Below, piece by piece: positions 32,454-57,059 of a stretch of 64,000 nt of DNA. The DNA lies in contig CM120640.1 in the NCBI GenBank assembly GCA_051362555.1, forward strand, positions 66,814,788 through 66,878,787, in the 5' to 3' direction. The DNA is from Lingula anatina (taxonomy: Eukaryota; Animalia; Brachiopoda). The position numbers and the translations under genes were made by a program. The notes beneath the pieces were generated by a model. The model searched no databases and was not told the DNA's origin. It was given only the letters and a program-made list of their open reading frames with translations. Within the stretch, counting starts at the first letter, position 1. Each line of letters starts with the position of its first letter.

Positions 32454-32694
32454 TCATTCTGGTGTGAACTTCCCCTCTGCAAACAATTTCTTCCACACAC
32501 TTCCACTGGGATATTCATACTCCAACAAGGATTCCTCTTTCATCTCTGCACTGTAACCTGGATCCTAAAAACCATGATAAGATTTTTTTTTCAATGTCAG
32601 ACTTTGCGATATCAATATTGTAGGAATGTTTTGAAGAAGTCTATGTAAAGTATGTATGGATGCCACAAACACATGCAGGTACACACAGGTAGGT

Positions 32695-32744
<50 letters not shown>

Positions 32745-32877
32745 CTGTATATATATATTAAAAAGTAAAAACGTTTTACCTGTATGAGTAATGAGTAATA
32801 TTATATATAATAAAAAGGAAAAAAGAACAGCAACTTTTTTTTGGGGGGCAAAAAAGTTGCTGTTCTTTTTTCCTTTT

Positions 32878-32931
<54 letters not shown>

Positions 32932-35900
32932 CAATGCATACCTTAGGGACTGTGTAACACCCATCTTTAACTACACATGGAGATTTAAAGTGCTCATGAA
33001 GATGGTCCACATATTCTGTCACTCTAAAACAGAATGCAATATTATCAGATATTGTAAAATAATACAATGAATAAAACACTACCAAAATTTTAGTTAGTAT
33101 GAAAAATACATATCTAGATACATTTATTTTGATAGTTAACAATAAAATGTACATATCTCATCCAAGTACTATCTTTGTGGAAGTGGAGAAAGAAAAGAAA
33201 AGTCTAAGTTGCCTGTTTTCCATGGAAGCTGACACACAGATGTAGTCAAAGATGCATAAATGGTTGATATATTCACACAAGCCTACTCCTCCACCATGCG
33301 GGCATACTGGTACTGCAATGAAAAACCTTATAGGGTCATTTTGACTGGAATCCGTCTAAATTTGAGATTTCTCACCCTTTTGTCTGTTTAACGTTATAAG
33401 GATTGAGACAGAAGATGACATCATACTGTTCAACATTGTGGTATGCCTCATTAATTTTAAGTACAAGTATGTTTTATCAAAATATGCCTGAAAAATTGAA
33501 CCAAAATTCACCTACCTCCATACTTGTAAGCCATCAACAAAACCACCAAGATCTCATTGACTCCTCCCAGACGACAGCTGTCAATCTGGCAAAATTGCAT
33601 GGCACCTTCCACGATAAACTGTTTGAACATGACACGGTTCTGGCACATTTCCCCTGTTGCCACTCCAATACCATAAGGCTTCAATGCCTGGAAAAAATAA
33701 GAGCAGATTTTTGGAATATCACTTTTAAATCATCATCATGATCAAAGTTTGTTATTTTTGTCTATTTTTTATCAATCCTTGTATTATCCATCAGTCATTG
33801 AATGGTACTTTTTTCAGGCATTCCCAAATTTCCTACCTTGGACTGTTTGATGTAACGTTATCTTTTAGAATAATTGGTTTTTTAAAAATTACTTTAGCAA
33901 TAGCAGCATGTCCCATAATGTCATCAGGACTAGTGGGTTCCTCAATCCACAAAGGCTTGAACTCAGCCAATTGTTTCATCCAATCTATAGACTGTTGCAC
34001 ATCCCAGCGCTGGTTAGCATCTGTCATCTAGAAATGTTAAGAAATGCAAACGGGTCACAACTGTTACAAAGTACATCAAGATATTCATTGTCTGTGGGGA
34101 TTTTAAATTTGTTCGTGTCTTGTGTAACAGAAATGATATGATTGTGCAGACATAATTTTTTACATTCAGTACTGGCCTTAAAACTAATATTACTTAGGTA
34201 CAGACAATTTGCACTTTCTTACCGTTTTTTCACTGGGCAAAAAAAACATCTAGAATACAGTCACATCACATGTTCATGCACTGGTATCCCACAACATAAA
34301 TACTTACCAAGACCTTGTCATATCCTATCTGTTCCCTGATCACTCTACATCTTCTTATGTCATCCTTTAGGTCAGCACCAACTTTCACCTTGAATCTGTA
34401 AAATTTCAGTGTAAAATCTTCATAAAATAATACAGATTTAAAGAAAAATAATAAAAATTTATGTCACTCCACCTTTTTTTATCATGATAGAATTTTTATT
34501 TTGCATTTCACATATTGAATTAAGAAAGGGGGCTTAAATTTGAATAAAGGAAACTGTATGCTATGTAATAAATAAACAAGGCAGCAAAGCTGTCAAATGT
34601 ACAGACAAAGAACAGAAAATAAAGATGCAAATAAGTGAAAAATTAAATTTTCACAAAAAACTGTTAAATTGCCACAAAAATTTACCAAACAGACTGCGTT
34701 GCCTATTGAAGCTGTATGTTAGACCCATGTTTCTTTCCTGTAAGTTTGATAACAGGAAGTGACATGATTTCCCTTAAATGGTCATCATAGGAGCAGTGCC
34801 CAAAATAGGAGTTTCTTCAAATTTTGATGCAACATTACATAATGTTTAACAGCATAATGACAATCAAATGTTATTAATAAAATATTAGTAACATGGACAT
34901 TCAGAAAATGTGACAAGCAAAAGTCTTCAAGATCATGGAACTTTAAAGTCACACCTTGAAAATGCCAATATGTGAAAAATAAAATTTTCACAAAAAACTG
35001 TTTAACTGCCAAAAAAAAAATAAATAAATAAATAAAAATACCAAACAGACTGCATTGCCTACTGAAGCTGTATTTTAGTCCCATGTTTCTTTCCTGTAAG
35101 TTTGAGAACAGTAAGTGACATGATTTTCCTTAAATGGTCATCATGGAAGCAGTGCCCAAAATAGGGGTTTCTTCAAATTTTGATGCAATATTACATAATG
35201 TTTAACAGCTTAATGACCATCAATTTTTAATTATAAAATATTTGTTTCACAGATATTCAGAAAATGTGACTAGCAAAGGTCTTCAGGCCCATGGAACTTC
35301 AAAGTCACGCCTTGAAAATGCCAAAATGTAAACAAGACAGCACTGTTCTGAAATGGGTTTATTTCCATTTTCAACACTTTTTTAACATAAAACAAAATAA
35401 ACATTTTACTGCCATTTTATATGACCAACTAAGAAAATTGATGAGATGGGAAAAGTATCAATAGAACAGTGTTAAATGTCCAATTTCCTCCATTCTGAGA
35501 TTCTGAACATAGTGGATGATTGAATCTGACAAACTGCAATGATATGAGTTTATTTCCATTTTTGACACTTTATTACACATTACATGATAACAAATTTACC
35601 ATGTTTTTTACATGATCAACTAACAATGTTGTAAAGATGCAGGAAATATCAAACAAACACTTTTAGGCATCTTATTAGTTAAATAATGAGACTGTTAACA
35701 TGCCTAATAATTGAATCTGAGGAAATGTGAAAAACAGTTTAACTTCTAAAATAATGGCCCGATTATGCTGATTTTCGAACTCAACCTGCGTTTTAGTAAG
35801 ATTGACCACCCCTGTGAGTATAATTACAATTGGCCAATCCGTTTTTCTTATATTGTGTTATCAGTGTTGTATTTATATTGAAAATAGTGAAAAAACAGCA

Positions 35901-38900
35901 TAAATTCCCTAAAAATGGCCCAATCATGCTGATTTTCGAACTTGACCTGCGTATTATGAATATTCATCAGTTCTGTAAGTTTCAAGTTAAAAGGTAAAAT
36001 GGTTTTCCACTTATCGTGTTATCGGTGCTGCATATATGCTGAAAAAAGTGAAAAAACAGCATAAATTCCCTAAAAGTGACCTGATCATGCTGATTTTCGA
36101 ACTTGACCTGCGTATTATGAATATTCATCAGTTCTGCAAGTTTCAAGTCAAAAGGTAAAATGGTTTTCCACTTATCGTGTTATCGGTAAAAGTGCACGGC
36201 GACGACGGCGCCGACGGCGCTGTCGGCGACGACAGACGCAGATGATGGCTATATGTACAGACACATCTGTGTCTGTACATAAAAAAGCAGAAATATCAAA
36301 TGTATGTGTGACAAAAAATATCAAAGTTTTGTCTTACAATTTGAAAAGTTTAAAAAATGGATATCATCAAACTAGTTTCAAAATGTCTTGTTCAAAGACA
36401 AATTTTAAGTTTTAGCATTATTTACTCAAAAGTTCACCTACTTGGTAAATCCTTCTGCCATGGCTTCTTGACACAACTGAAACATCCCATACAAACATTC
36501 ATCACTTCTTCTTATTATCAAACGTGTAAAAGATGCAAATTTTTCAATATCCTAATATTAAGAGGTGTGTGTAATTCTGATTTTATAACATAAATATGTA
36601 TCTCACAAGTGCCATAACCCAAGTGGTTTTACCTTCTTTATCCTCTCTTCACTGTAACCCAACCAGCCAGCAGAGGTAGTATATGCAGGGTATCCCTTTG
36701 ATAACAACTCCTTCTCTGTAATATATAATACCATTTTATCCAAAACAATTACCAAGCCACTCCTTTTTTTTAAATTTTAATACATATAATACGGTAGTCA
36801 AGTAAGAGGAGCTGAAAATCTTTGTGTGTAGGTAATCTTTAAAATGGCACTCCTTTTTTTGCATTTTTTGGGATTCACTTTTAGTAAAAACAAAGTTACC
36901 CTACCTCTTTCTGCTTTGGTAGACTGATTTTTCTTCAGTATTGCTAAACCAAAGAAAAAACATTTAAAATCAATAAAAATAACAAAAATATTCCAGAGTA
37001 TTTTACTTATTTTTATAATTTAAAAATATGAAGCCTTCAAGTTTGCCTTACCTCATGCAATGTGATGCCATTAACAAACACCCCATTTCCATAGATAAGA
37101 TCAACCTACTTTAGATCGACCTAACTCCCTGGGGGTTCATGCTAAATAGCTGTCAGCCGGGCAGACACGAAAGTTAATTACCCCCTTACAGCTTGTAGTA
37201 GGCGGGACGGACATTTAAGTCGGATTATCTGAAAGTAATCTAGTGAGACTCCCCGTGGGGATCGATCGATCTAAAATCTATGGGAATAGAGCCAAACACT
37301 TTACATTACAAATGTTATCCATGGGTTGTTTTAAATGTGAATATCTCTGATTGTTGTCATCTATCTTCTCTAACACATCTCAGGGAACACCACTCACCTA
37401 TTGCTTCCTCTGGTGTGAGAGCATCTGACCTAATCATTAATAACAAAAGAAAATAATTTGTATTACAATATTAGCATATAAACACATCAAGATAACATTC
37501 TGATAGAAGTTAACCTGTGTCCTGTAGTATTGTCATTCATGTTGAACATTTTAAACTTTTCAATTTCTACACAAACTTTTGAAAGCATACCATGCATGGT
37601 GAAAGCTTTTATCCCAACAAAATTAACACCATTCAACATAAATTCAATGTAATTGGACACTAACAACATGGACACTAATTTTTTTAAAAAACACCTGTTA
37701 ACACTCCAATGAAAGGGACCATGCAGATTGAGAAGAGCCAAGTGCTAGTAAGGCCGCGACCTAAATATGGCGGACCTACATGAAAGGAAGACTGCTAATC
37801 CTGTAATGGTCCCTCCACCTCTCACACGCCTCCCCACACGTCGTCCCTGCAGGGGCACAGTAATTAAATCTCGGCTCAATTCAACCAGTCGAGGGACAAC
37901 GCGTGGGGAGGCGTGTGAGAGGCAGGGAAACCATTACAGGATTAGCGGTCTTCCTTTCATGTAGGTCCGCCATATTTAAGTCGCGGCCTTACTAGCACTC
38001 GGCTTTTCTCGATCTGAATGGTCCTTAATAAGTGGATACTTACAGATATCTGAAGTCCATTGTGGACACTAACTTTTCTGGTTCCTGAAACCAATACATG
38101 TTTGACAACTATTTATGTGGCAGAATAAAATGTACGATTGATGTCAAGGTACAAGTATGTTATTCGTATATATCCACACTAAACAGTTTTTTACAAATAT
38201 TCAGGAGTAAAATATATTTTACACAGACAAGTATATTTCTAATTATGCTAAGAATATGCCATCCAGAAACATTAACCTTATGTGTTTATAAGAATTGAAA
38301 CCATTTATAAGTATCTACTAATATCTAACAAGTATTTAAAATTACCATTGCTCATAAAATAACTTACCATATCAACTAAAAGTTTCCACAATGGCTGTAA
38401 GAAAATAAATTTCAAATGTTAAATAAGTGAAAATGCAATGGACTAATGAATTTGAAATATACTTATGTGGTCATTGTTGAAACCTAAAATGTACCCCAAA
38501 GACAATGATAATAAGATTTTTTTTCTATTTTGAAAAACTTTCAATGATTTTCGAGCTTTGATTGCCTAGTGTAATATTCTTAAACAGGTTTCATATATAC
38601 CTTTCCCTCCATCTTGGCCCACATATCCCATAATGCATTAACAATCCCTGCCGTCGCCAGGTGAACCACACCCTTCTCTGGGCCAAGCTAAAAGCAAACA
38701 GACACTGACACTCGAGTGTTTATATCAATAATTGGAATCATTCAGTATCTCTTGGTATGTTGTTAATGACCAGAGAAATTTTCATCATTAAAATATGGTT
38801 CAGTTATTTTCCCAACAATGAGAGAGCTGCTACACTCAATCGCAGCAAACAGACACCAGATATAACCAGCCTAATCTAAGTCAAGTTTTAACTTGAAATC

Positions 38901-40517
38901 TTAAAAGATTTAAAGTTATTTAATGCTACCAGTATATCTTCATATTGTTTTTGATCTGAATTATGCATTCTGTACTAACCTGGTTATAATATGGCCTACT
39001 AGTACGTATGTATAAGTATCTAATATGAAAAATTTCGACCATGATAAATATTACAATCTAAACTTACCCATCGAAATTGTGTGTCATTCACCAGCTTCTC
39101 CCAAAAGACACCAAAATTGTCAAATATGTCTGACACCTTCTTCCCAACTACCATTCTGCCCATGTATTTTATGGAATTACACACTGCAAAACATCCAATA
39201 GTCAACTTTTATTTCAATTAGGAAACAATAATAAATACATTTTGTAAGGTTTTGAAAATTTTTTAAAAAAATTGTCATTTTCATTAAAAAAATGTCTCAA
39301 TGTTTTTTGACAAAATGACTCGAAAAAGTATTTTCTTGACCTTCTAACATACAGCATTCATAAGCAGCTGACATACCAAGGTCAGTTCCCCTGCCTGCAG
39401 TAAAGGTTAACCCATGCCCCCTTAACTGAGTGTCTGTACAGATAACAACATAGGCACATGAGTAGTCTGGATCACCATGCTAAAACACAGTAATTCAAAA
39501 CCCAGTCAGATATACAACAATGTGCTGTGTCCTCTCCTGACACTGACCCTGAGTAACCTGCTGACTGCTGTAGTTTAGGGACCATTCCCAGACCCTTTCA
39601 TACTAACTGTGGATCGATCTACCTCCAAGGGTATTCTTGCTAAATTGCAATCAACTTAAGCTGCTTAGATGTTTGCCATGCCTACTGAAGCTGTTAGGGG
39701 GTAATTATAACTGGCGTTTAGCAGCTTCATTAGGCGTGTCAGACAGCTAAGCCGTTTAAGCTGAAAGCAATTTAGCGAGAAACCCCTTGGAGTTCCTCGG
39801 TATGGGAACCAAGTCTTATTAAGAATAACCAGGCACTGACAGCAAGCTACTCATATAGGGCTGACACAGCAGGAATAATGCACTGTACTGGTATGAGTGT
39901 GACATACCCAAGTCATTGCCTCTTCCAAGAGAAAAAGTCAATCCATGCCCTTCAAGTTTTAGGGAGTCTGTTTTGAATATAACATAGGCGCATGAGTAGT
40001 CTGGGTCTGCATGCTATAATATGGTAAAATTCCTATATGTCAAGTAAATATAATTAATCAATTAATTGATTGATTAATTAAATAATTAATTAATTAATTA
40101 ATTAATTAACAGTGGATAAAAAACAAAATAAAACTAACAAAATTTAGATCTTAAATACATAATTTGGTGAAATCTTTCTTTAAACAACTTCATTTATTGT
40201 ACTGCATCTGGCACATAAAAATAGCTTAATTTACAGCCAAATCTTCTACACATCTTGGAGCCATCAAACTCCATTCATACTCTGGCATTCATTGCAAAAA
40301 TCATTCCACTCCTGCAAAGCCGACATACCGGTACACTGCTCAATGGTTTGACAAGCCCATGGTCATGTAGATGTTCAAAGTAGTACCGGTATCTAGATTT
40401 CATGTAATGCATTGTTTTTTGGTTGTTTAAAAAAACTTATTTGTCTAGCTGAGGTTTTACGATACTCCTTCCTTGCAATTGGCTTGTCTGTGTGTGTGTG
40501 TGTGTGTCGTGTGTGAT

Positions 40518-40564
<47 letters not shown>

Positions 40565-40650
40565 GAGTTTACCATGGCATCCGAACCATGCGCCTCCAAT
40601 GAAGTTGGAAAGCGAACATCCTTCACGGTCAGCTCTGTTATTGTGGCCAT
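32454..40650 (-). CDS. ENOSF1: Mitochondrial enolase superfamily member 1 / L-fuconate dehydratase (rTS), with duplicated exon 2
   Basis: Exon 1 40573-40650 ([16 protein letters not shown]); exon 2 present twice; [13 protein letters not shown] (~38600-38688); [14 protein letters not shown] (~36633-36715); KFKVKVG KxK motif (~34308-34395); MTDANQRW...[10 protein letters not shown] (33893-34027); ATGE and [13 protein letters not shown]; [10 protein letters not shown]; last exon ends FTPE-TGA at 32454. Confidence 0.96.
32698..32928. repeat. Two (TA)n microsatellites in the last ENOSF1 intron
   Basis: TA runs at ~32698-32734 and ~32882-32928. Confidence 0.95.
34575..36282 (-). mobile_element. 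1.7-kb Helentron-associated interspersed element (HINE) with internal tandem arrays, complete copy
   Basis: On the - strand: TT, subTIR/palindrome ATGTACAGACACA-GA-TGTGTCTGTACAT, (GTC/GCC)n microsatellite, ~3 x 161-bp units, 2 x ~190-bp diverged units, 2 x ~340-356-bp units, 3' subTIR TGTCTGTACAT, stem-loop GACAGC-TTT-GCTGCC and TTGTT end. Confidence 0.88.
37082..37293. mobile_element. Fold-back MITE, family shared with 39578-39811
   Basis: TIR-like ATTTCCATAGAT / ATCTATGGGAAT plus TTTAGATCGA / TCGATCTAAA. Core AGTTAATTACCCCCTTACAGCT is near the reverse complement of AGCTGTTAGGGGGTAATTATAACT at ~39689. Confidence 0.65.
37715..38025. mobile_element. Long-TIR palindromic MITE (~130-bp arms, ~45-bp spacer)
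   Basis: GGACCATGCAGATTGAG...CGTCCCT (37716-37847) is ~90% reverse-complementary to AGGGACAACG...GAATGGTCC (37892-38024). TTAA lies at the right junction. Confidence 0.9.
39377..39479 (-). CDS. ENOSF1: ENOSF1 exon 2b (103 nt), alternative copy
   Basis: TTTTAG| [34 protein letters not shown] +G |GTATGT; phase 0 to 1. Confidence 0.9.
39578..39811. mobile_element. Fold-back MITE between the two ENOSF1 exon-2 copies
   Basis: Nested inverted repeats CTCCAAGGG..TTGCTAAATTGC / GCAATTTAGCGAG..CCCTTGGAG and GCCTACTGAAGCTG / CAGCTTCATTAGGC; termini TTCCCA / TGGGAA. Confidence 0.7.
39908..40013 (-). CDS. ENOSF1: ENOSF1 exon 2a (106 nt), alternative copy
   Basis: TTATAG| [35 protein letters not shown] +G |GTATGT; phase 0 to 1. 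Confidence 0.9.
40488..40567. repeat. Compound (GT)n(GA)n microsatellite beside the ENOSF1 exon-1 donor
   Basis: GT run followed by a GA run ending a few nt from the donor at 40572. Confidence 0.95.
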
Positions 40651-41852: not shown

Positions 41853-42504
41853 AAAGTTCATGTGCGACTTTGCAATTGTTACGGCGTTTTCTATATTTTT
41901 CGTATCTATCTTTTCAAATTAAAATTACAATGCAACATATGAATAAAACTTTAATATGTGGTTTTGAATTTTGCATTTGCTTGATTTGTTTTTTAGATTT
42001 TCATGAGTTCCATATGAAGTATGCATTTTTTGCGTCAAAATTATTTTTTTCTCGAGACTAGCCTACAGAGCCCTGTGTTTAAACATGTAGTAGGCATATG
42101 TCTGTGTAGGACCAACATACTAGTAAATTCAACAGTAACTTGAAATTTTGTCATATTGTGTAGTAGGCCCTACATACACAACTTAGAAATAAGACAATTA
42201 ACAATATAATTATTCACAAAGAACATAGAAATCCCTTAAAATCAATATGTAAAATTATTTCATCTGTGATCTGAAGGAAGGAACACATGTGATTGGGCTT
42301 ATAGATTAAGGATAACCCTAAGAAGATTACAATTATTACACATGTTCTATAAATAGAGGTTTTCCAGTGTCTCACAGTCCATGTACTCATCGAGTAGGTA
42401 CATGTACTAGGGGTTCAGTAAATCTTAAATTTATCTTGGCTATGATGACTGACATTCACCCATGAAATATTTTCTGTGCACCACTGACTTTAGAGGCGTG
42501 TATT

Positions 42505-43236
42505 ATGGGTGAAATGCCTACGTATTTGAACTCCACAGTTAATTCGGGACCTGACTGTGACATCCATCCACCTGTTCCAGTTGACTCTGACTCAAGCGTC
42601 ACTCCTACGAGGTGCTGGTGTTATGTGACATACCTCATCACCTTATTCTGTTTCCTGGTAATGATCATAACAATTTTCAGAAAAATACGAACCCAAGGCA
42701 AACTGTGTGCGACTCCCGAATTATACTCAGTAATTTTGCCTGCTGTTGACTTTGTGATACTATTAACATCATCTAGACGGTGTATAGGCCTACGAGGAGC
42801 AGAGTTCAGAGGAGTGTATTCAAGTTTGACTGAGTTTCGTTCCTGTGCTTCTCGCCTTAGCGATTCCGCTGTCGGGTGGGGTTCCCTCATTTTGTTCTTA
42901 GCAATCATAGCGCAAAGGTATTTTTTGTTGCAGAGCCTGGCGAAAGCTTCCAAGCTATCCAGTCCGCGGACAACTGTGCGAGTTTTTCTAGTGACAACGT
43001 GCGTTTCACTCATTGTCGTCCTTCAGATGATTCAACTATACTTGGAAAGTGTGCACAGATCTAACAATCTGCTGGACTGGGTGCAACAGTCTGTAAAAGA
43101 TGCTGGTATCGTCTTTACATTAAAGAAGTTATTCGTTCCTGGGATTGCGGCGCTCACCCCGCTTGCAGTAATGTTGTGTTTGTCAGCATTATTTTGTTCA
43201 AGGAAAAAGAAAGGACTTGGTTTGAAATCACTTTGA
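42505..43236 (+). CDS. Intronless rhodopsin-like (class A) GPCR-like protein with TM1-TM5 only; possible pseudogene
   Basis: N-terminal NST sequon, five hydrophobic segments, TM2 LPAVD (LAxxD-like), Cys at the top of TM3, IIAQRY in place of DRY, and a TM5 proline (LTPLAVM). No CWxP or NPxxY. The same frame stays open past the TGA to 43557. Confidence 0.6.
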   Translation: MGEMPTYLNSTVNSGPDCDIHPPVPVDSDSSVTPTRCWCYVTYLITLFCFLVMIITIFRKIRTQGKLCATPELYSVILPAVDFVILLTSSRRCIGLRGAEFRGVYSSLTEFRSCASRLSDSAVGWGSLILFLAIIAQRYFLLQSLAKASKLSSPRTTVRVFLVTTCVSLIVVLQMIQLYLESVHRSNNLLDWVQQSVKDAGIVFTLKKLFVPGIAALTPLAVMLCLSALFCSRKKKGLGLKSL

Positions 43237-50427: not shown

Positions 50428-52822
50428 CTATGAAAATTTAGGAAATACTGGAATGGTAACCGCGTTATGGTTATTTAAATAATAATCCAAATGCAAGACT
50501 TCATCAAATTTTCCTGATATGAGATCAAAACTTTCAATAACATTGCACTCCTCCCCAGCGACAACAAATATCGTATCTTGGACAATGCAAGCGCTACCCA
50601 GTGCTTTCCTAAACTTTCCCCGTTTGCTGAATTTCTTTGCCACTGTATCAAATTCTAGAAGGTCCAAGATGTACTGTCCAGTAAGGTAGATAACATTCCC
50701 TCTAGTCATTGCACAATGGAGGCCATTTTCAAATGGCAGTGGAATTTTTAAGTGTATCCAATAATCCAGTGTAGGTTCGTAACATTGTATATCATGTTTG
50801 ATGACATACAGTTTATCATTGCATACAGCAGCAGCAGCAGAGTACTGGGGTGTCAGCAATGCTGCACACTTGATCCACTGACCTGTCAATTGTGAGATGA
50901 AAAATACTCTTCATCTTCATTATCACAATAATAATAATAATAATATTTATTTATTCCTTTCTTAAGAGTAGAATTACTCACACATGCCATTACTTCTGAA
51001 CATTGAAAAACATTATTAAAAAGCATTTTCATTTTGAGAGAGAAAGAGCTGGGCAGTGAGAACTTCAATCCTGATGAAGCTAGAAAATCCTGTACTTTTT
51101 TTGGGGGGGTGGGGGGGGGGGAATTGGCCCCTTCACCTCACTGTGCAGCCCTTTGTTAAACTGATAAGATGAAAGTATCTGATTTGATTGTTAATCACAA
51201 CCACTGCATACCTGTCTTAGTGTTGTACTTTTCCACACTATCCAGTACTAGCCTGTGTCTTCCAAACCCACCAACCAAATAAAAGCTTTCATCCCAGACA
51301 CAGAGCCCGTGGTGCCTTCGAGGCTGACGAAGCTGTGTAATAATTTCCCATTGTTCTGATATGCTGTCAAACTTCCATACATCATAGAACCATTGGTTGT
51401 GCCCAAGTTTTGCTTCTCCGCCAGTAACATATAAATCCTTACCTAGAATTGAATAATGAAGGCATAACAATTTTTTTTTTTTGCATTTTAACATAAACTT
51501 TACTTCAAGATCATCTTTGAATTCCAACAGGTTGCACCAAATTCTTAATACAATAAATAAAAAAGACTTTTACGTTCTACATTGTATTTCTCAAATGAAC
51601 ATTAATGAACATGATATATAAAATGACAATAATCATGACAGAGAAAAATGTAAATTTATCAAACAGACATCTAACTTTTATATCAAAATTTTACCTATGA
51701 CACATGCTTTGCTACCATTGATCTGTTTTGAATTTGAAAAAACATTTTTCAGACTACACAGTTCCTGCAGCAGTCCCTGGTCAGGGTCTAAATACTGGAC
51801 ACTGAGGTTGGGCTGAACATCACCATTTTCAAGAGGGGCATGGTTCCCACCAACTATGCCCAATCTCAGGGGGATGCCTCTGGGATCCTGTGAAATAACA
51901 AGTCGATCAAAAATTAAATCCCATGTTTGATTCAGATTTCTTCTTTAAAGCAAAAAGGAAGAAAAAATTATAAGCAGCTGTTCATTCTACACACATTATT
52001 TCTAAGTCAAACAAGTTTAAATTTATTTCTAAGATACTTTTGTTTTGGCCAAACATTTTAAACATGATGGAAATACAGTCAACTTACACTGACCTTTTTG
52101 AAATCTGCCACTGCTGCCATCTTAAAATATTCCTTGAGCATATTCTGGATCTCTGCATTTGATTTTACTAATGGACACATTTCTATAACTTCTTGAATCT
52201 CATTTGATGCAATGAGTTCAAATCTCACCAGCTTTAATATAACTGGGAGTTGACCAAGCCTTTCATCTTTGTCATATTCAATCCATCTGAGGACACACCA
52301 CAATACATTAGCCTCACTAGACATCTGTAGATATTCACAACTTAAGTAGTCAGTCAAAGCTCGGACATCTATTTGCATAAACTCATCCTGCTGGGTAACC
52401 TCCTCAAAAAACCAGACTGCCCACCTTTTGGCCTGATTGTACAGGTTTTTCAGTGATAAAATATCTGCCAGATACATACTTCGCAAGCAGTTTGCAGTTC
52501 CAAGGTGTTTCAATAGAAATGAGCTACATTTGTCGGAAACGTTTGAAAACTGATACATGCATGCAGTTTCCAAAAGAGCATAAACATTATCCCAGGTTAT
52601 GGATATGTCTTGGTTATTGGCAAACTTTATCAAGAGCTCCACGGATTCATATGAAGCTCCTTTAAGGTTGACACAATTGGCTGTGCTCTCCATCATGTCA
52701 CTGTTAAACATTGCCTCAAAGTACGGACTGGCCTTCCTGAGTACGTCTCTGCCACACTGCAGAGAGTGACCGTCAACCACCAAAGTTATTTGGTCATCTG
52801 TGGACTGTGAGATGTCTGCCAT
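50428..52822 (-). CDS. Kelch-like protein (BTB-BACK-Kelch, CUL3 adaptor family), 4 coding exons
   Basis: Exon 52094-52822 BTB+BACK (VLRKASPYFEAMFNSDMMES; CVLRWIEYDKDER); 51695-51887 (DPRG...IVGG); ~51212-51442 (LYVTGG...PRRHHG...YLVGG...VEKYN); 50428-~50882 (KLYVI...IQCYEP). Confidence 0.92.
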
Positions 52823-54457
52823 CTTGTATTTCCTGATTTTTCTGAAGGCAGAGCATTATGTCATTTACTACGAAAGTATAGCCATTAACTGAATTATTAG
52901 ATAACGATTTAAAATTAAATACACTTTCAGAAATATCATTCTGACTGAAAAATTCAATATCAGGCTAATTCTTACATTCAGTGTTTTCAAATGCATAACC
53001 ACGTCTGCATCAGAAATGCACACTTATTGGTTTATTCAATTTAACATTTATCTGAATTACTATAAATAAGTATAACATTTCTTGAAGTTCCATCTAGGCG
53101 CTGATCTTAACTAACAAAATAGGTTATCTATTTTTAAATGGAAGACATACCTTTTATAGGCTATCCGATCTTCACATCCAGTCTTCAATTTCTTGAACAA
53201 CAGTGGTTAACCTACAGACAATGAAACATTGAAATTAAATCTATATTATTCAATGGCACAACAATAACCCAAGGTGCATTCATGAAAAATAATTGTACTA
53301 TCTAATAAAAACAACTTTAAGTCTCCACTTCCACTTTTTCACCATGTCTGATTTAATTTTGTACATTAAGACCTGAGCTTAGTTCATTAGGAATACTGAA
53401 AGCAGATAATTATTATTACTATACCTTTAAAATTAAAATTCCTAGCACTATGTGGCAGGATTGAGAATTTTTTCCTTAAAGAGGCAAATTAACTGAAATA
53501 AAGTGTCATATTGCTGATTTTATCCAATTGGAGACATAAATAGTTTACATAAAATATTAATTATCATAAGTAATATATTTTATTTATATATATATAATTA
53601 AGCACTTTGTTGTCAGATTATCCTTTAACATCAACTGTTTGGGCATTTGGTATAGACTAAAGGTAAAATTTACAGCCATTGAGCACGCTTTTGTGGTATC
53701 ATGTCTCAAGTCATTTCTTTCTGTCTAGACAACAATTTCATTTGTGGTCTGTTGCATGCCACTTGGAATATTACAGTCACACGCCACAAACTGAGTGGCT
53801 GCTAAACTTAACACTAAAACGAGAATACATTTGTGATAGTGAGTTTTAAGTGATATGCACAAGTGTGAAGCATGAGTGGATGACACAGCAGACATGGGGA
53901 AACTGACAGTCTGACCCAACATTAACCTCTGAAAAGCCAGAAGACCAGCAAGATTTTGGATGATGCAGTTCCTCTGGACTGGCAACATAAATGTGGAAAT
54001 ACCATACATAAAAGTAAATCATATGTAAATATCGACCTATGGACAAAATTAAAAGGACATGCAGATTTCTTGTAGTGCAGGTCCTCCAGACCTTCAGTAC
54101 CTCCAAAGTTTTCCCCATGTTTGTCACAGTGTGGTGGCCAGTGGTGTATCCAACCTGTTCCATGGCAGATGTCGATGACAACATACAGGCATGGTGTAAC
54201 TCAGGATCATGCATCCTGTACATATGCAAAAACACCATGTCTGGGTCTTTTTTTTTTCTTGAACATCTGCCATAGTATAAGGATCATAGGTCTCTGGTTT
54301 TCCCCAATGATTTGGATGATTTTTTATATTATTATTATTATTATTTTGCTTTTGGAAAAGTCTAACACTTTCAAAATTGACCTCTAATGTACTCTACTGT
54401 GTAGAGAAAACTATCACAGAATCTCTGATGAAACAATTACTGCAACCAACTCAGGGC

Positions 54458-54814: not shown

Positions 54815-56023
54815 TCACTCTTCAGGGTATTCATGATCATATTTCAACTTAACATCAGGAACCAAGTCTCTGATATGAGTTGTAGGTAGGTACCATATCA
54901 ATTGCTCAGTGGGTAGGTAAGTGTGGATCCAGTGATGAACAGAAAACGAATACGGTGCAGGTTTTTCTCTCAATTTTTTTATATAAAAGCTAACACAAGC
55001 CTCTTTTTGTTTCCTTGTCAGTTTCTCAACATTTTTACATCTGGACCTGAAGTAAAATGGTTTGTAAGGGTCAGTGGTTGGAATAAAGTATTCAGCTGGG
55101 GCCAGAAACACTCCGTCACCATTTGTATCTGATATATTTCTGCGAGAATATTCCTTCCAAACGCTAGTGAGAAAATGTGGGCCAGTGCTGTCCAGTAGGT
55201 CCCACATGTGAGAAAAGTCTGGCAGCCTTTCTACCACCAACTTAAAGAATGGATGCCCAGGTCTGCAGCCCATGATGGCATTGATTGCAAGATGTTCATT
55301 ATTGGTGTCCAGAAGGGAATGCTCAGGTGGCTCTTGTCCAAGAAAACAGTTATATTTGTAAGTCAGCGGATCTACTGGTCTCACAGCTTGCATGTCAGTA
55401 TCTGCATAAAGTCCCCCAAAGTGGTACAAAATGAAATACCTCATGGAATCAGCTCGACGAATGTTCTGCATATAGTTATCATACATGGAGAGATATGGAG
55501 GAAATGTTGTTCTGATGAACTCTCTGGCACCGTGATCAGTCCAAAACCAATACTCCCAGTCTGGGTGCACTTGCTTCCAAGACTTCACCCAAGCTGTCAC
55601 CCGAGAGGGGACATAGGGATCTTTCCAAGTCTGATGAATAATTTTTGGTATTTTGTGTTTCCCAGTAGGTGGCAACTTTTCAAAAGGAACTAAAGTTGGA
55701 TTCAGTGTTGGGTCATATAGCCTTGAATGAAGTATCCACAAGTCTATGGAATTTAATATCTTCAATAGTAGCAATATCACCAACACAGCTGCCGCTATGT
55801 ATGCAATTATCCTTCTGCATTTGTTCTTGAAGGGAATGTTTCTAGCACCTCTCCTATTATTGCAGAGTTTAAGACAAGATCTTACCATCTTGATAGAGTG
55901 TCCAGCAGTCCAAAGACTGCACAGGTATAAACTGTACAATAATGTGACACACCTGGAGATGTTCCCTGGCCTGCCAATCTGATCACATGGACCCTCTATC
56001 ATAACAGCAACATCACTGGTCAT
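54815..56023 (-). CDS. Glycosyltransferase family 32 (DXD; MIPC synthase SUR1/OCH1-like) membrane protein, intronless CDS
   Basis: TM segment IIAYIAAAVLVILLLLKIL; IPKIIHQTWK; HPDWEYWFWTD; RADSMRYFILYHFGGLYADTD; N-x-x-MGCRPGHPFF; STGPHFLT; HHWIHTY. Acceptor ...TTTTTATTCAAG at 56033 precedes the ATG at 56023 (start codon uncertain). AATAAA ~50 nt after the stop. Confidence 0.9.
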   Translation of the reverse strand: MTSDVAVMIEGPCDQIGRPGNISRCVTLLYSLYLCSLWTAGHSIKMVRSCLKLCNNRRGARNIPFKNKCRRIIAYIAAAVLVILLLLKILNSIDLWILHSRLYDPTLNPTLVPFEKLPPTGKHKIPKIIHQTWKDPYVPSRVTAWVKSWKQVHPDWEYWFWTDHGAREFIRTTFPPYLSMYDNYMQNIRRADSMRYFILYHFGGLYADTDMQAVRPVDPLTYKYNCFLGQEPPEHSLLDTNNEHLAINAIMGCRPGHPFFKLVVERLPDFSHMWDLLDSTGPHFLTSVWKEYSRRNISDTNGDGVFLAPAEYFIPTTDPYKPFYFRSRCKNVEKLTRKQKEACVSFYIKKLREKPAPYSFSVHHWIHTYLPTEQLIWYLPTTHIRDLVPDVKLKYDHEYPEE

Positions 56024-57059
56024 GAGCCCTCCCTTGAATAAAAACAAAAAGTTCATAAAATTCCATATTACAGGTAGATTATTATGCTACCTTACACTTT
56101 CTCAAAGATTTGGTCTCAGTAGTTTGCATTTGCTTCTTACTGCAGTGCCCTGGTACATACATGAACTATAATATTAGTGATAAACATAAATATAGGGGGT
56201 CACCTTGTTACATCCCAGATCTTGACAGATGATTTGAAAAAAAAAGAACACTTGAGTTTTTGGAATTGCCTAGTATTCAACCTCACATAATATGCAGGTA
56301 AGATCTTACAATGCCCTGTGCTACAAACTCTTTAGGCGACATGTTCAGTCACTTTAAAAAGTCATTTATAAATGATACTGTAGCACTGCAATATAGCTAG
56401 GAATAAAAAACTAAAATATTATGAAACTGGTGCAAGAATCAATACAAAAGAACCTTAATTGTGCAAAGAACACACAAATTTCCACGGCCTCAAGAGCCTG
56501 TAACACAGAGTGTTATGAAGCCTTATCTGCAATAAGTATACTTACTAGTAACATGTAAGGCTGAAAAATTATTCAAAATTCAAAGGCGTACTTTTTTTAA
56601 TTAAAACTGTTGTATTTATAATAAAGTTTTTAAATTAATTTTTAGATTACATTCTTACCAAGGGGAAGTTATACTGTGACGGAGTGACGATGTTGGGGCA
56701 TAAAATTATGTATCCATATTACACAACTTGACAAATACTACATATTTGGCCACATGTTGTCCTCTAGAATAAGCCAGTCATCATTCATGAATCAATATTT
56801 CGGACCACAGTCATAAGATCATTATCTATGCTAAGTATATAATAAATTCCTTCAATGTCTAAGCTCATTATTGAACAGAAAAGAGCTAACTAAGCTCTTT
56901 CCTGTAGGAAAATATCCAGGAAGATGAATGGAGTGAGGAACACGTTTCATTACCTACGGTTCTGGCTGCGGGTATACATCGATGTGACTCAATTATCCAT
57001 CTTGTCGCTATTATCAAGATGAGCCTACGATCCAGATTTCTACTGAAATAATTTCAGAT

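What the first reader, a model, noticed from the sequence alone, without database searches (positions are those of the whole stretch)
39377..40013. Tandemly duplicated, probably mutually exclusive exon 2 in ENOSF1 swaps the substrate-capping region
Seen: two paralogous exons, 2a (39908-40013, [35 protein letters not shown]) and 2b (39377-39479, [34 protein letters not shown]). Both have TAG acceptors, GTATGT donors and phase 0 to 1, so including both or skipping both breaks the frame. 24 residues are identical and about 10 of those use different synonymous codons; the only indel is a whole codon. This points to an old duplication with both copies under purifying selection. Established: in the enolase superfamily (mandelate racemase subgroup, L-fuconate dehydratase) the capping-domain 20s and 50s loops determine substrate specificity. 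Inference: this exon carries the end of the 20s loop (DPDY) and the F-T/S-x-G-R-G loop, so a splice switch could yield two acid-sugar dehydratase isoforms with different specificity or kinetics (FTAGRGT vs FSLGRGN). I know of no such exon pair in vertebrate ENOSF1.
Basis: partly seen in the sequence, partly recalled or inferred. Interest (0 to 1): 0.85.

Follow-up and report, generated by a model that had tools for sequence, protein, structure and literature searches.

The report
Swappable lid exon in sugar enzyme
The lamp shell Lingula carries two old, selection-preserved copies of the exon that likely builds the lid over the active site of a fucose-breakdown enzyme; most transcripts use one copy and likely only a few per cent the other, and clams and oysters have annotated isoforms that swap the same segment, which would tune the enzyme's substrate pocket.

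Summary
Confirmed. The window holds Lingula anatina ENOSF1 (L-fuconate dehydratase family) with two homologous exon-2 copies; either alone gives a full protein, both or neither stop early. dN/dS between copies is about 0.17. RefSeq already has both isoforms. In 4 RNA runs 128 reads join 2a to exon 3; no 2a-2b or 2b-3 joint reached the 3-read listing threshold, but exon-bounded 2b coverage is about 5% of 2a. The 'one-codon indel' is a haplotype variant: 111 of 111 reads lack it. Oysters and venerid clams have equal-length RefSeq isoform pairs differing only in this segment; mussels show three variants. In all 7 pairs residue 54 goes from Leu/Val to Ala/Asn, where 86% of homologues have Ile/Leu/Val. 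One ancient origin fits best, recurrent origins are not rejected. A predicted intron hairpin may help exclusivity. The specificity switch is untested, and Asn/Thr58 alone cannot be it. The scan noted the same duplication before in the annelid Owenia (e1-7275332, unchecked here). Known kind of system, apparently undescribed for this gene.

The parts
40573..40650 (-). ENOSF1 exon 1 (coding part, residues 1-26, first half of the 20s loop), ends in phase 0
   Evidence: loose ends at the 2a acceptor read exon-1 sequence in 60 and 64 reads
39908..40013 (-). Exon 2a, major copy (Leu54, Asn58); this haplotype has an extra Leu codon at 39960-39962 that RNA reads and RefSeq X1 lack
   Evidence: 128 reads join it to exon 3
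39828..39891 (-). 5' arm of predicted intron hairpin (unique sequence just below the 2a donor); core helices 39871-39863 and 39853-39840
   Evidence: predicted only:
39577..39792 (.). Dispersed repeat element with inverted arms (39623-39696 / 39719-39792) inserted in the loop of the hairpin; reads from other copies pile on it
39502..39575 (-). 3' arm of predicted intron hairpin; core helices 39563-39550 and 39531-39523; branch-point candidate CTGAC at 39509-39505
   Evidence: predicted only:
39377..39479 (-). Exon 2b, minor copy (Ala54, Thr58); protein identical to RefSeq X2 over the exon
   Evidence: exon-bounded depth 5.65/1.7/1.62/0
39068..39183 (-). Exon 3, common acceptor
32454..38687 (-). 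Exons 4-16 of ENOSF1 (38687-38601, 38394-38368, 38084-38044, 37429-37398, 36943-36905, 36715-36633, 36476-36442, 34395-34308, 34027-33893, 33687-33516, 33312-33213, 33023-32942, 32564-32454), holding all catalytic and metal-binding residues
   Evidence: model differs from RefSeq X2 at 3 of 442 residues; joints e3-e4, e4-e5, e5-e6 seen in RNA

Best explanation
Lingula ENOSF1 has two selection-preserved copies of exon 2 that can only be used one at a time, with 2a as the default and 2b likely a real minor isoform whose smaller residue 54 would retune the substrate pocket of the same acid-sugar dehydratase. Shown: either copy alone gives a full-length protein, both or neither give an early stop; 2a-e3 is the common junction. 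Inferred: double inclusion is removed by nonsense-mediated decay and likely hindered by a hairpin in the 428-nt intervening intron whose two core helices would bring the 2a donor to about 53 nt from the 2b branch point. Inferred: the chemistry is unchanged (all catalytic residues lie in shared exons) and the swap changes the cap, chiefly Leu54 to Ala with Asn58 to Thr, shifting kinetics or the preference among L-fuconate, L-galactonate and D-arabinonate. The same a/b arrangement (bulky aliphatic major copy, Ala/Asn minor copy) exists in bivalves and likely goes back to one lophotrochozoan duplication (about even odds against repeated origins).
For: Frame logic and stops. dN/dS about 0.17, saturated flanks. 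RefSeq X1/X2 differ only here. RNA: 128 2a-e3 reads, no 2a-2b joint listed; 2b depth on the transcript strand in 3 of 4 runs with 0-0.08 in the flanking intron bins; back-calculated 6, 2, 2, 0 reads crossing the 2b acceptor and about 2 reaching its donor. X7 carries a 2a allele more like 2b yet lays nothing on 2b, which argues against cross-mapping. Equal-length isoform pairs differing only in this segment in Crassostrea virginica, Magallana gigas, Mercenaria and Ruditapes (16 residues each); b copies are orthologous within oysters (100/99) and within venerids (99/94). Residue 54 changes from L/V to A/N in 7 of 7 pairs, while 42 of 47 other rows have I/L/V and 165 of 192 distinct segments do. 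Model puts 54-55 in the loop between the hairpin and the first cap helix, TM 0.96 to human 4A35. Hairpin: unique arms duplex -61.5 kcal/mol, z -3.2, antisense -46.3 like shuffles; strongest of 16 introns; two nested helices in 1 of 600 shuffles.
Against: No 2b-e3 joint was listed in any of 4 runs; 2b use is a back-calculation from binned depth, is 0 in X7, and is lower at the donor (about 1.5%) than at the acceptor (about 6%), so some 2b molecules may be unproductive. No run showed a switch to 2b. No kinetic data. Asn and Thr at 58 are about equally common in the family (95 and 92 of 192) and both occur in characterised fuconate dehydratases. Ala54/Thr58 is also the only annotated form in Ixodes, so it is compatible with an ordinary enzyme. 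6 of 10 Lingula differences are at residues 38-46, hypervariable in the family. That residue 54 lines the pocket is recalled by analogy, not tested: the FucD and rTS-gamma structure papers were not held. The hairpin has no covariation support, at least one of 1000 shuffles beat it, and the 2b branch zone (0.70 paired) and donor (0.66) are not more paired than those of other introns (0.38-0.80; 0.35-0.89). No origin hypothesis was rejected.
Confidence: 0.55

Rival explanations
1. Both copies are functional but catalytically near-equivalent; the swap tunes stability, lid dynamics, oligomer contacts or expression in a tissue or condition rather than substrate choice.
For: Most differences lie in the distal hairpin; D31, Y32, F52, G55 and all catalytic residues are shared by the Lingula copies; PMC9741552 section 10 reports that ligand-binding residues in duplicated exons are mostly conserved between isoforms; N/T58 toggles across the family.
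Against: The one family-conserved position that changes in 7 of 7 pairs is 54, always towards a small or polar residue, which surface drift would not predict.
Confidence: 0.25
2. In Lingula 2b is a once-functional copy now nearly silent; its few reads are leakage, and the transposon-containing intron reflects relaxed constraint.
Against: 2b has intact splice sites and frame, is identical in protein between this haplotype and RefSeq X2, keeps every family-invariant residue, and its end branch equals that of 2a (0.43 each).
Confidence: 0.15
3. The pair is an assembly or annotation artefact (haplotype or paralogue collapse).
For: The window haplotype differs from RefSeq and from the RNA samples at several sites.
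Against: dS 1.4 between copies with unrelated flanks is far beyond allelic distance; a second assembly (RefSeq) has both; reads join 2a to exon 3 across 2b, skipping 724 nt; four bivalve genera repeat the pattern.
Confidence: 0.02

Closest known systems
Tandem duplicated, mutually exclusive exons in metabolic enzymes (KHK-A/C, PKM1/2, ACOX1, PFKP, OGDH 4a/4b)
   Same: Two homologous internal exons, one per transcript, next to the ligand site, with catalytic residues shared (PMC9741552 section 10; PMC7969005 passages).
   Different: Different gene and family; lophotrochozoan, not vertebrate; the minor copy is about 5% in the runs seen and no tissue switch or kinetic difference is shown; the intervening intron has a normal branch-point candidate 30 nt from the acceptor, not the distant branch point of OGDH.
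Human ENOSF1 / rTS-gamma (PDB 4A35) and Xanthomonas FucD (2HXT, 2HXU)
   Same: 63% and 53% identity, TM 0.96 and 0.94; K216, K218, D246, N248, E272, E301, H351, E382 invariant in 60 of 60 rows.
   Different: Human splice forms alpha, beta, gamma are not reported as homologous-exon swaps in the passages read; ENOSF1 is absent from the held human tandem-exon table. Activity of the Lingula proteins is untested.
RefSeq ENOSF1 isoforms X1/X2 of Lingula, Crassostrea, Magallana, Mercenaria, Ruditapes; exon-2 variants of Mytilus
   Same: Same segment swapped; L/V to A/N at 54; N/S to T at 58 in 5 of 7 pairs.
   Different: Automatic annotations only; seen here as proteins, their exon order and genomic layout could not be read; orthology to the Lingula pair is unresolved.
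Structure-assisted steric exclusion (Dscam exon 17) and competing-pairing MXE clusters
   Same: A two-exon cluster with a predicted intron hairpin that would shorten the donor to branch-point distance towards the about 50 nt threshold (threshold from PMC7969005; mechanisms listed in PMC6071210 passage).
   Different: Prediction on one sequence; no covariation; the Dscam 17 paper was seen only as a title in reference lists (not held); frame-shift decay alone can explain exclusivity here.

Membership tests
Tandem-duplicated mutually exclusive exon pair | Two adjacent homologous exons of like length and phase with own splice sites | tested here: met
Tandem-duplicated mutually exclusive exon pair | Each alone gives a full frame; both or neither do not | tested here: met
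Tandem-duplicated mutually exclusive exon pair | Copies are not joined to each other in mRNA | tested here: met
   no 2a-2b joint listed (threshold 3 reads) against 128 2a-e3 reads in 4 runs
Tandem-duplicated mutually exclusive exon pair | Both copies are found spliced on both sides in mRNA | tested here: inconclusive
   2a yes; 2b only by exon-bounded depth (about 10 reads at acceptor, about 2 at donor, back-calculated) and RefSeq X2; no 2b-e3 joint listed
Tandem-duplicated mutually exclusive exon pair | Purifying selection / conservation of both copies | tested here: met
   dN/dS about 0.17; b copies conserved within oysters and venerids
Tandem-duplicated mutually exclusive exon pair | Regulated, tissue- or stage-specific switch | tested here: inconclusive
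   2b share 7.5, 2.4, 14.8, 0% in four runs of unknown tissue, few reads
L-fuconate dehydratase / ENOSF1 (mandelate racemase subgroup) | MR_MLE_N cap plus MR_MLE_C barrel fold | tested here: met
   Pfam; fold search
L-fuconate dehydratase / ENOSF1 (mandelate racemase subgroup) | KxK, D/E/E metal ligands, His-Asp dyad residues conserved | tested here: met
   (role assignment recalled; K220A in the 2HXU title matches K218)
L-fuconate dehydratase / ENOSF1 (mandelate racemase subgroup) | Dehydrates L-fuconate | not testable with these tools
   needs an assay
Isoform pair with different substrate specificity | Differing residues contact the substrate | not testable with these tools
   coordinates of model and of 2HXU not available to scripts; primary papers not held
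RNA-structure-enforced exclusion | Conserved, covarying intron pairing | tested here: inconclusive
   strand-specific duplex z -3.2 but no second genome; splice signals not unusually paired

The most novel reading that the evidence does not exclude
One exon duplication older than the brachiopod-mollusc split (over 500 million years) gave suspension-feeding lophotrochozoans (Lingula, oysters, clams, mussels, perhaps Owenia) a splice-selectable second lid for fuconate dehydratase, in which a single pocket residue shrinks from Leu/Val to Ala/Asn and changes which algal acid sugar is broken down; mussels expanded it to three lids and also fixed a b-like lid in a paralogous gene.
Probability: 0.2. 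Interest if true: 0.8.

Novelty: new member of a known kind. Interest (0 to 1): 0.52.

Why it matters
Substrate choice in the enolase superfamily is set mainly by the cap domain (PMC9795676 passage), and the physiological role of animal ENOSF1 is still open (PMC13406643 passages). Natural isoform pairs that differ only in 34 cap residues, repeated in two or three phyla with the same directional change at one position, are a ready-made experiment on what that lid does, and would add a cross-phylum example to the short list of enzyme exon swaps, most of which are known from vertebrates and flies.

Tried and rejected
No whole genome is held for this window, so no related brachiopod genome could be compared. 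The look-up of sequencing runs listed no RNA holder, only 9 same-species raw-read runs; 4 of 9 were laid, 6-25% of each; exon 1 was not in the laid stretch, so e1 junctions rest on loose ends, and 107 loose-end rows were not shown. A protein search with exon 2b found no close b-type relative among 15 candidates. A metagenome scan gave 18 eukaryotic ENOSF1 loci, each with one exon-2 copy; only 7 of 18 show the whole e1-e3 interval, some are near-duplicates, none is identified as bivalve or brachiopod, and the pattern would miss some copies. Among 30 clusters looked up, isoform or allele pairs of Schistocerca, Ptychodera, Pycnogonum, Pomacea, Patella, Aplysia, Biomphalaria, Acanthaster, Diadema, cephalopods and marsupials showed no exon-2 swap; this is annotation-level absence only. 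Rejected: N/T58 as substrate signature. Rejected: distant branch point as in OGDH (candidate lies 30 nt from the acceptor). Not supported: sequestration of the 2b branch point or donor; two helices covering the 2b donor are within chance. Lingula 2b is as close to Ixodes, Owenia and deuterostome single copies (25-26 of 34) as to Ruditapes X2 (25), so raw similarity does not show orthology. Mytilus rows were left out. Ten literature searches listed no paper on this exon pair; subscription journals are mostly not covered. No complex was folded.

Full report
1. Observation. The two exons are as described. A 16-exon minus-strand model from 40650 to 32454 gives 443 aa with 2a and 442 aa with 2b; with both the frame stops at codon 64, with neither at codon 31, 1132 and 1022 nt before the last junction. 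After removing one codon, 24 of 34 residues and 70 of 102 nt match; dN 0.24, dS 1.41, Fisher p 1.2e-4; flanking introns share only the donor octamer. This is an old duplication under purifying selection, not chance and not allelic.

2. Identity. Exon 13 hits Lingula anatina ENOSF1 X1 at 100%. Its cluster has X1, X2 (both 442 aa) and X3. X1 is the 2a form and X2 the 2b form; they differ at 10 residues, all between 28 and 58. The window's 2b model differs from X2 at 3 residues, none in exon 2. The protein is an L-fuconate dehydratase orthologue: E 2e-198 to human 4A35, model pLDDT 93.7, TM 0.96 to 4A35 and 0.94 to Xanthomonas FucD, eight catalytic or metal-binding positions invariant in 60 of 60 aligned rows and all outside exon 2 (roles recalled).

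3. Expression. Four of nine listed same-species RNA runs were laid on 38000-40200, 6 to 25% of each. The 2a-e3 joint has 70, 46, 6 and 6 reads; loose ends at the 2a acceptor read exon-1 sequence in 60 and 64 reads of X1 and X3. No 2a-2b and no 2b-e3 joint reached the listing threshold of 3 reads from 2 starts. Depth over the first 74 nt of 2b is 5.65, 1.7, 1.62 and 0 against 69.6, 67.9, 9.3 and 10.6 on 2a, on the transcript strand, with 0.08 or less in the intron bin above and 0 in the fully intronic bin below. Back-calculation gives 6, 2, 2, 0 reads crossing the 2b acceptor and about 2 (X1) ending at its donor; pooled share 5.4% by depth, 1.5% at the donor; mates may count twice. So 2a is the default and 2b is likely a rare spliced exon; a productive 2b-e3 junction was not directly listed. 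All 111 reads over the site lack the extra Leu codon of 2a, so that indel belongs to this haplotype.

4. Other animals. Thirty clusters were looked up. Equal-length RefSeq isoform pairs that differ only in this segment exist in Crassostrea virginica and Magallana gigas (16 residues each), Mercenaria mercenaria (16) and Ruditapes philippinarum (16). Three Mytilus proteins differ at 13-15 of 34 positions inside the segment and 4-12 of 412 outside, which points to three copies, though the comparison is across species; M. californianus X3 shares the M. edulis X2 variant. A Mytilus paralogue carries F-L-N-G. Compared isoforms of gastropods, cephalopods, arthropods, echinoderms, a hemichordate and marsupials show no such swap. 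Eighteen eukaryotic loci from metagenomes each hold one copy, with the donor at the same place (the pattern demanded it); 7 of 18 show the whole e1-e3 interval; the window control gave two. An earlier, unchecked note of this scan reports a second exon-2 copy in the annelid Owenia without RNA support; I saw only the one annotated Owenia protein.

5. Origin. On 34 columns, b copies group within oysters (100/99) and within venerids (99/94), a copies within venerids (98/91); 28 of 39 inner branches are open. Among five fixed histories, one lophotrochozoan origin has the best likelihood under 3 of 3 models (by 2.4 to 11.2 units), none is rejected (lowest p-AU 0.145). Lineage-shared residues (D59-L60 in both Lingula copies, T38 in all oyster and mussel gene-A copies) favour recurrence or conversion. 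I leave it at even odds.

6. What the swap changes. In the model exon 2 covers the distal 20s loop (residues 21-30, pLDDT 60), strand 31-41, turn, strand 46-53, loop 54-55 and the start of helix 56-71. Six Lingula differences lie at 38-46, positions that vary freely in the family; four (28, 53, 54, 58) lie at the loop end. Position 58 is N in 95 and T in 92 of 192 distinct segments; Xanthomonas FucD has N and human ENOSF1 T, and 15 of 15 fungal homologues shown, many named L-galactonate dehydratase, have the same FTIGRGN as FucD, so it is no substrate signature. Position 54 is I/L/V in 165 of 192 segments (set biased by a 2b query) and 42 of 47 unpaired rows, yet changes from L/V to A or N in 7 of 7 pairs from four lineages. 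By recalled analogy with the 50s-loop pocket residues of mandelate racemase this would enlarge or polarise the pocket; this could not be checked, as the structure papers (Yew 2006, Wichelecki 2014) were not held and no coordinates were available. Ixodes has A54/T58 as its annotated form, so the b lid is compatible with an ordinary enzyme.

7. How exclusivity may work. Frame shift and early stop suffice with nonsense-mediated decay (inference; mechanism named in the PMC6071210 passage). The 2a-2b intron also folds far better than shuffles (z -8.2), mostly through a repeat element (39577-39792). The unique flanks pair too: -61.5 kcal/mol against -45.2 +/- 5.0 (z -3.2; the best of 1000 shuffles reached -64.7), the antisense strand gives -46.3, and it is the strongest end-to-end duplex of 16 introns. 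Two nested core helices (14 bp with 3 G-U pairs, 9 bp) arose in 1 of 600 shuffles. They would leave about 53 unpaired-path nt between the 2a donor and the branch candidate, near the about 50 nt steric threshold (PMC7969005 passages). Against: no covariation data, and the 2b branch zone and donor are not more paired than in other introns. I give the hairpin about 0.35 of being functional.

8. Known systems and novelty. It works like KHK-A/C, PKM1/2, ACOX1 and OGDH 4a/4b (PMC9741552 section 10 read; PMC7969005 passages). ENOSF1 has 0 occurrences in the held supplement of the human catalogue PMC8373072 and in the small held supplement of PMC9741552. PMC13406643 and PMC3197473 (passages) mention only human alpha, beta, gamma forms. 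Ten searches listed no paper on this pair, but the isoforms are already in automatic annotation. Verdict: real, old, cross-phylum, new member of a known kind; minor expression and an untested functional difference keep the score moderate.

Noticed in passing
window 39960-39962: Extra Leu codon in exon 2a of this haplotype, absent from 111 of 111 RNA reads and from RefSeq X1.
   Followed up: yes
window 33212-33024: Intron after exon 14 has a GC donor (GC-AG); the RefSeq protein agrees with that junction.
   Followed up: partly
window 39577-39792 and 37271-37175: Dispersed repeat with inverted arms, transcribed from many other loci on both strands; a 71% related piece lies in another ENOSF1 intron.
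   Followed up: partly
proteins P0193, P0207, P0217, P0269, P0270-P0275: Mytilus appears to have three exon-2 variants in one gene (one lacks the otherwise invariant Tyr32) plus a paralogue with F-L-N-G.
   Followed up: partly
protein P0044 (unnamed transcript-derived record): A b-type segment (Gly28, Ala54, Thr58) in a protein 68% identical to the Lingula enzyme; organism unknown.
   Followed up: no
window about 26700-26240, minus strand: Exons with Gly-X-Y repeats followed by a sequence that looks like a CTHRC1-type collagen-domain protein (name recalled), downstream of ENOSF1.
   Followed up: no
window 42466-43236 +: 256-codon stop-free frame with hydrophobic stretches, divergent from ENOSF1, no Pfam match.
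   Followed up: partly
window 50428-52855 - and 54815-56086 -: A BTB-BACK (kelch-like) gene and a DXD glycosyltransferase gene.
   Followed up: no
whole window: No match to four recalled thymidylate synthase motifs, so the vertebrate ENOSF1-TYMS neighbourhood is not evident here (weak test).
   Followed up: partly
L015:2680-2507: An ENOSF1 locus in which exons 1 and 2 are fused (first intron absent).
   Followed up: no
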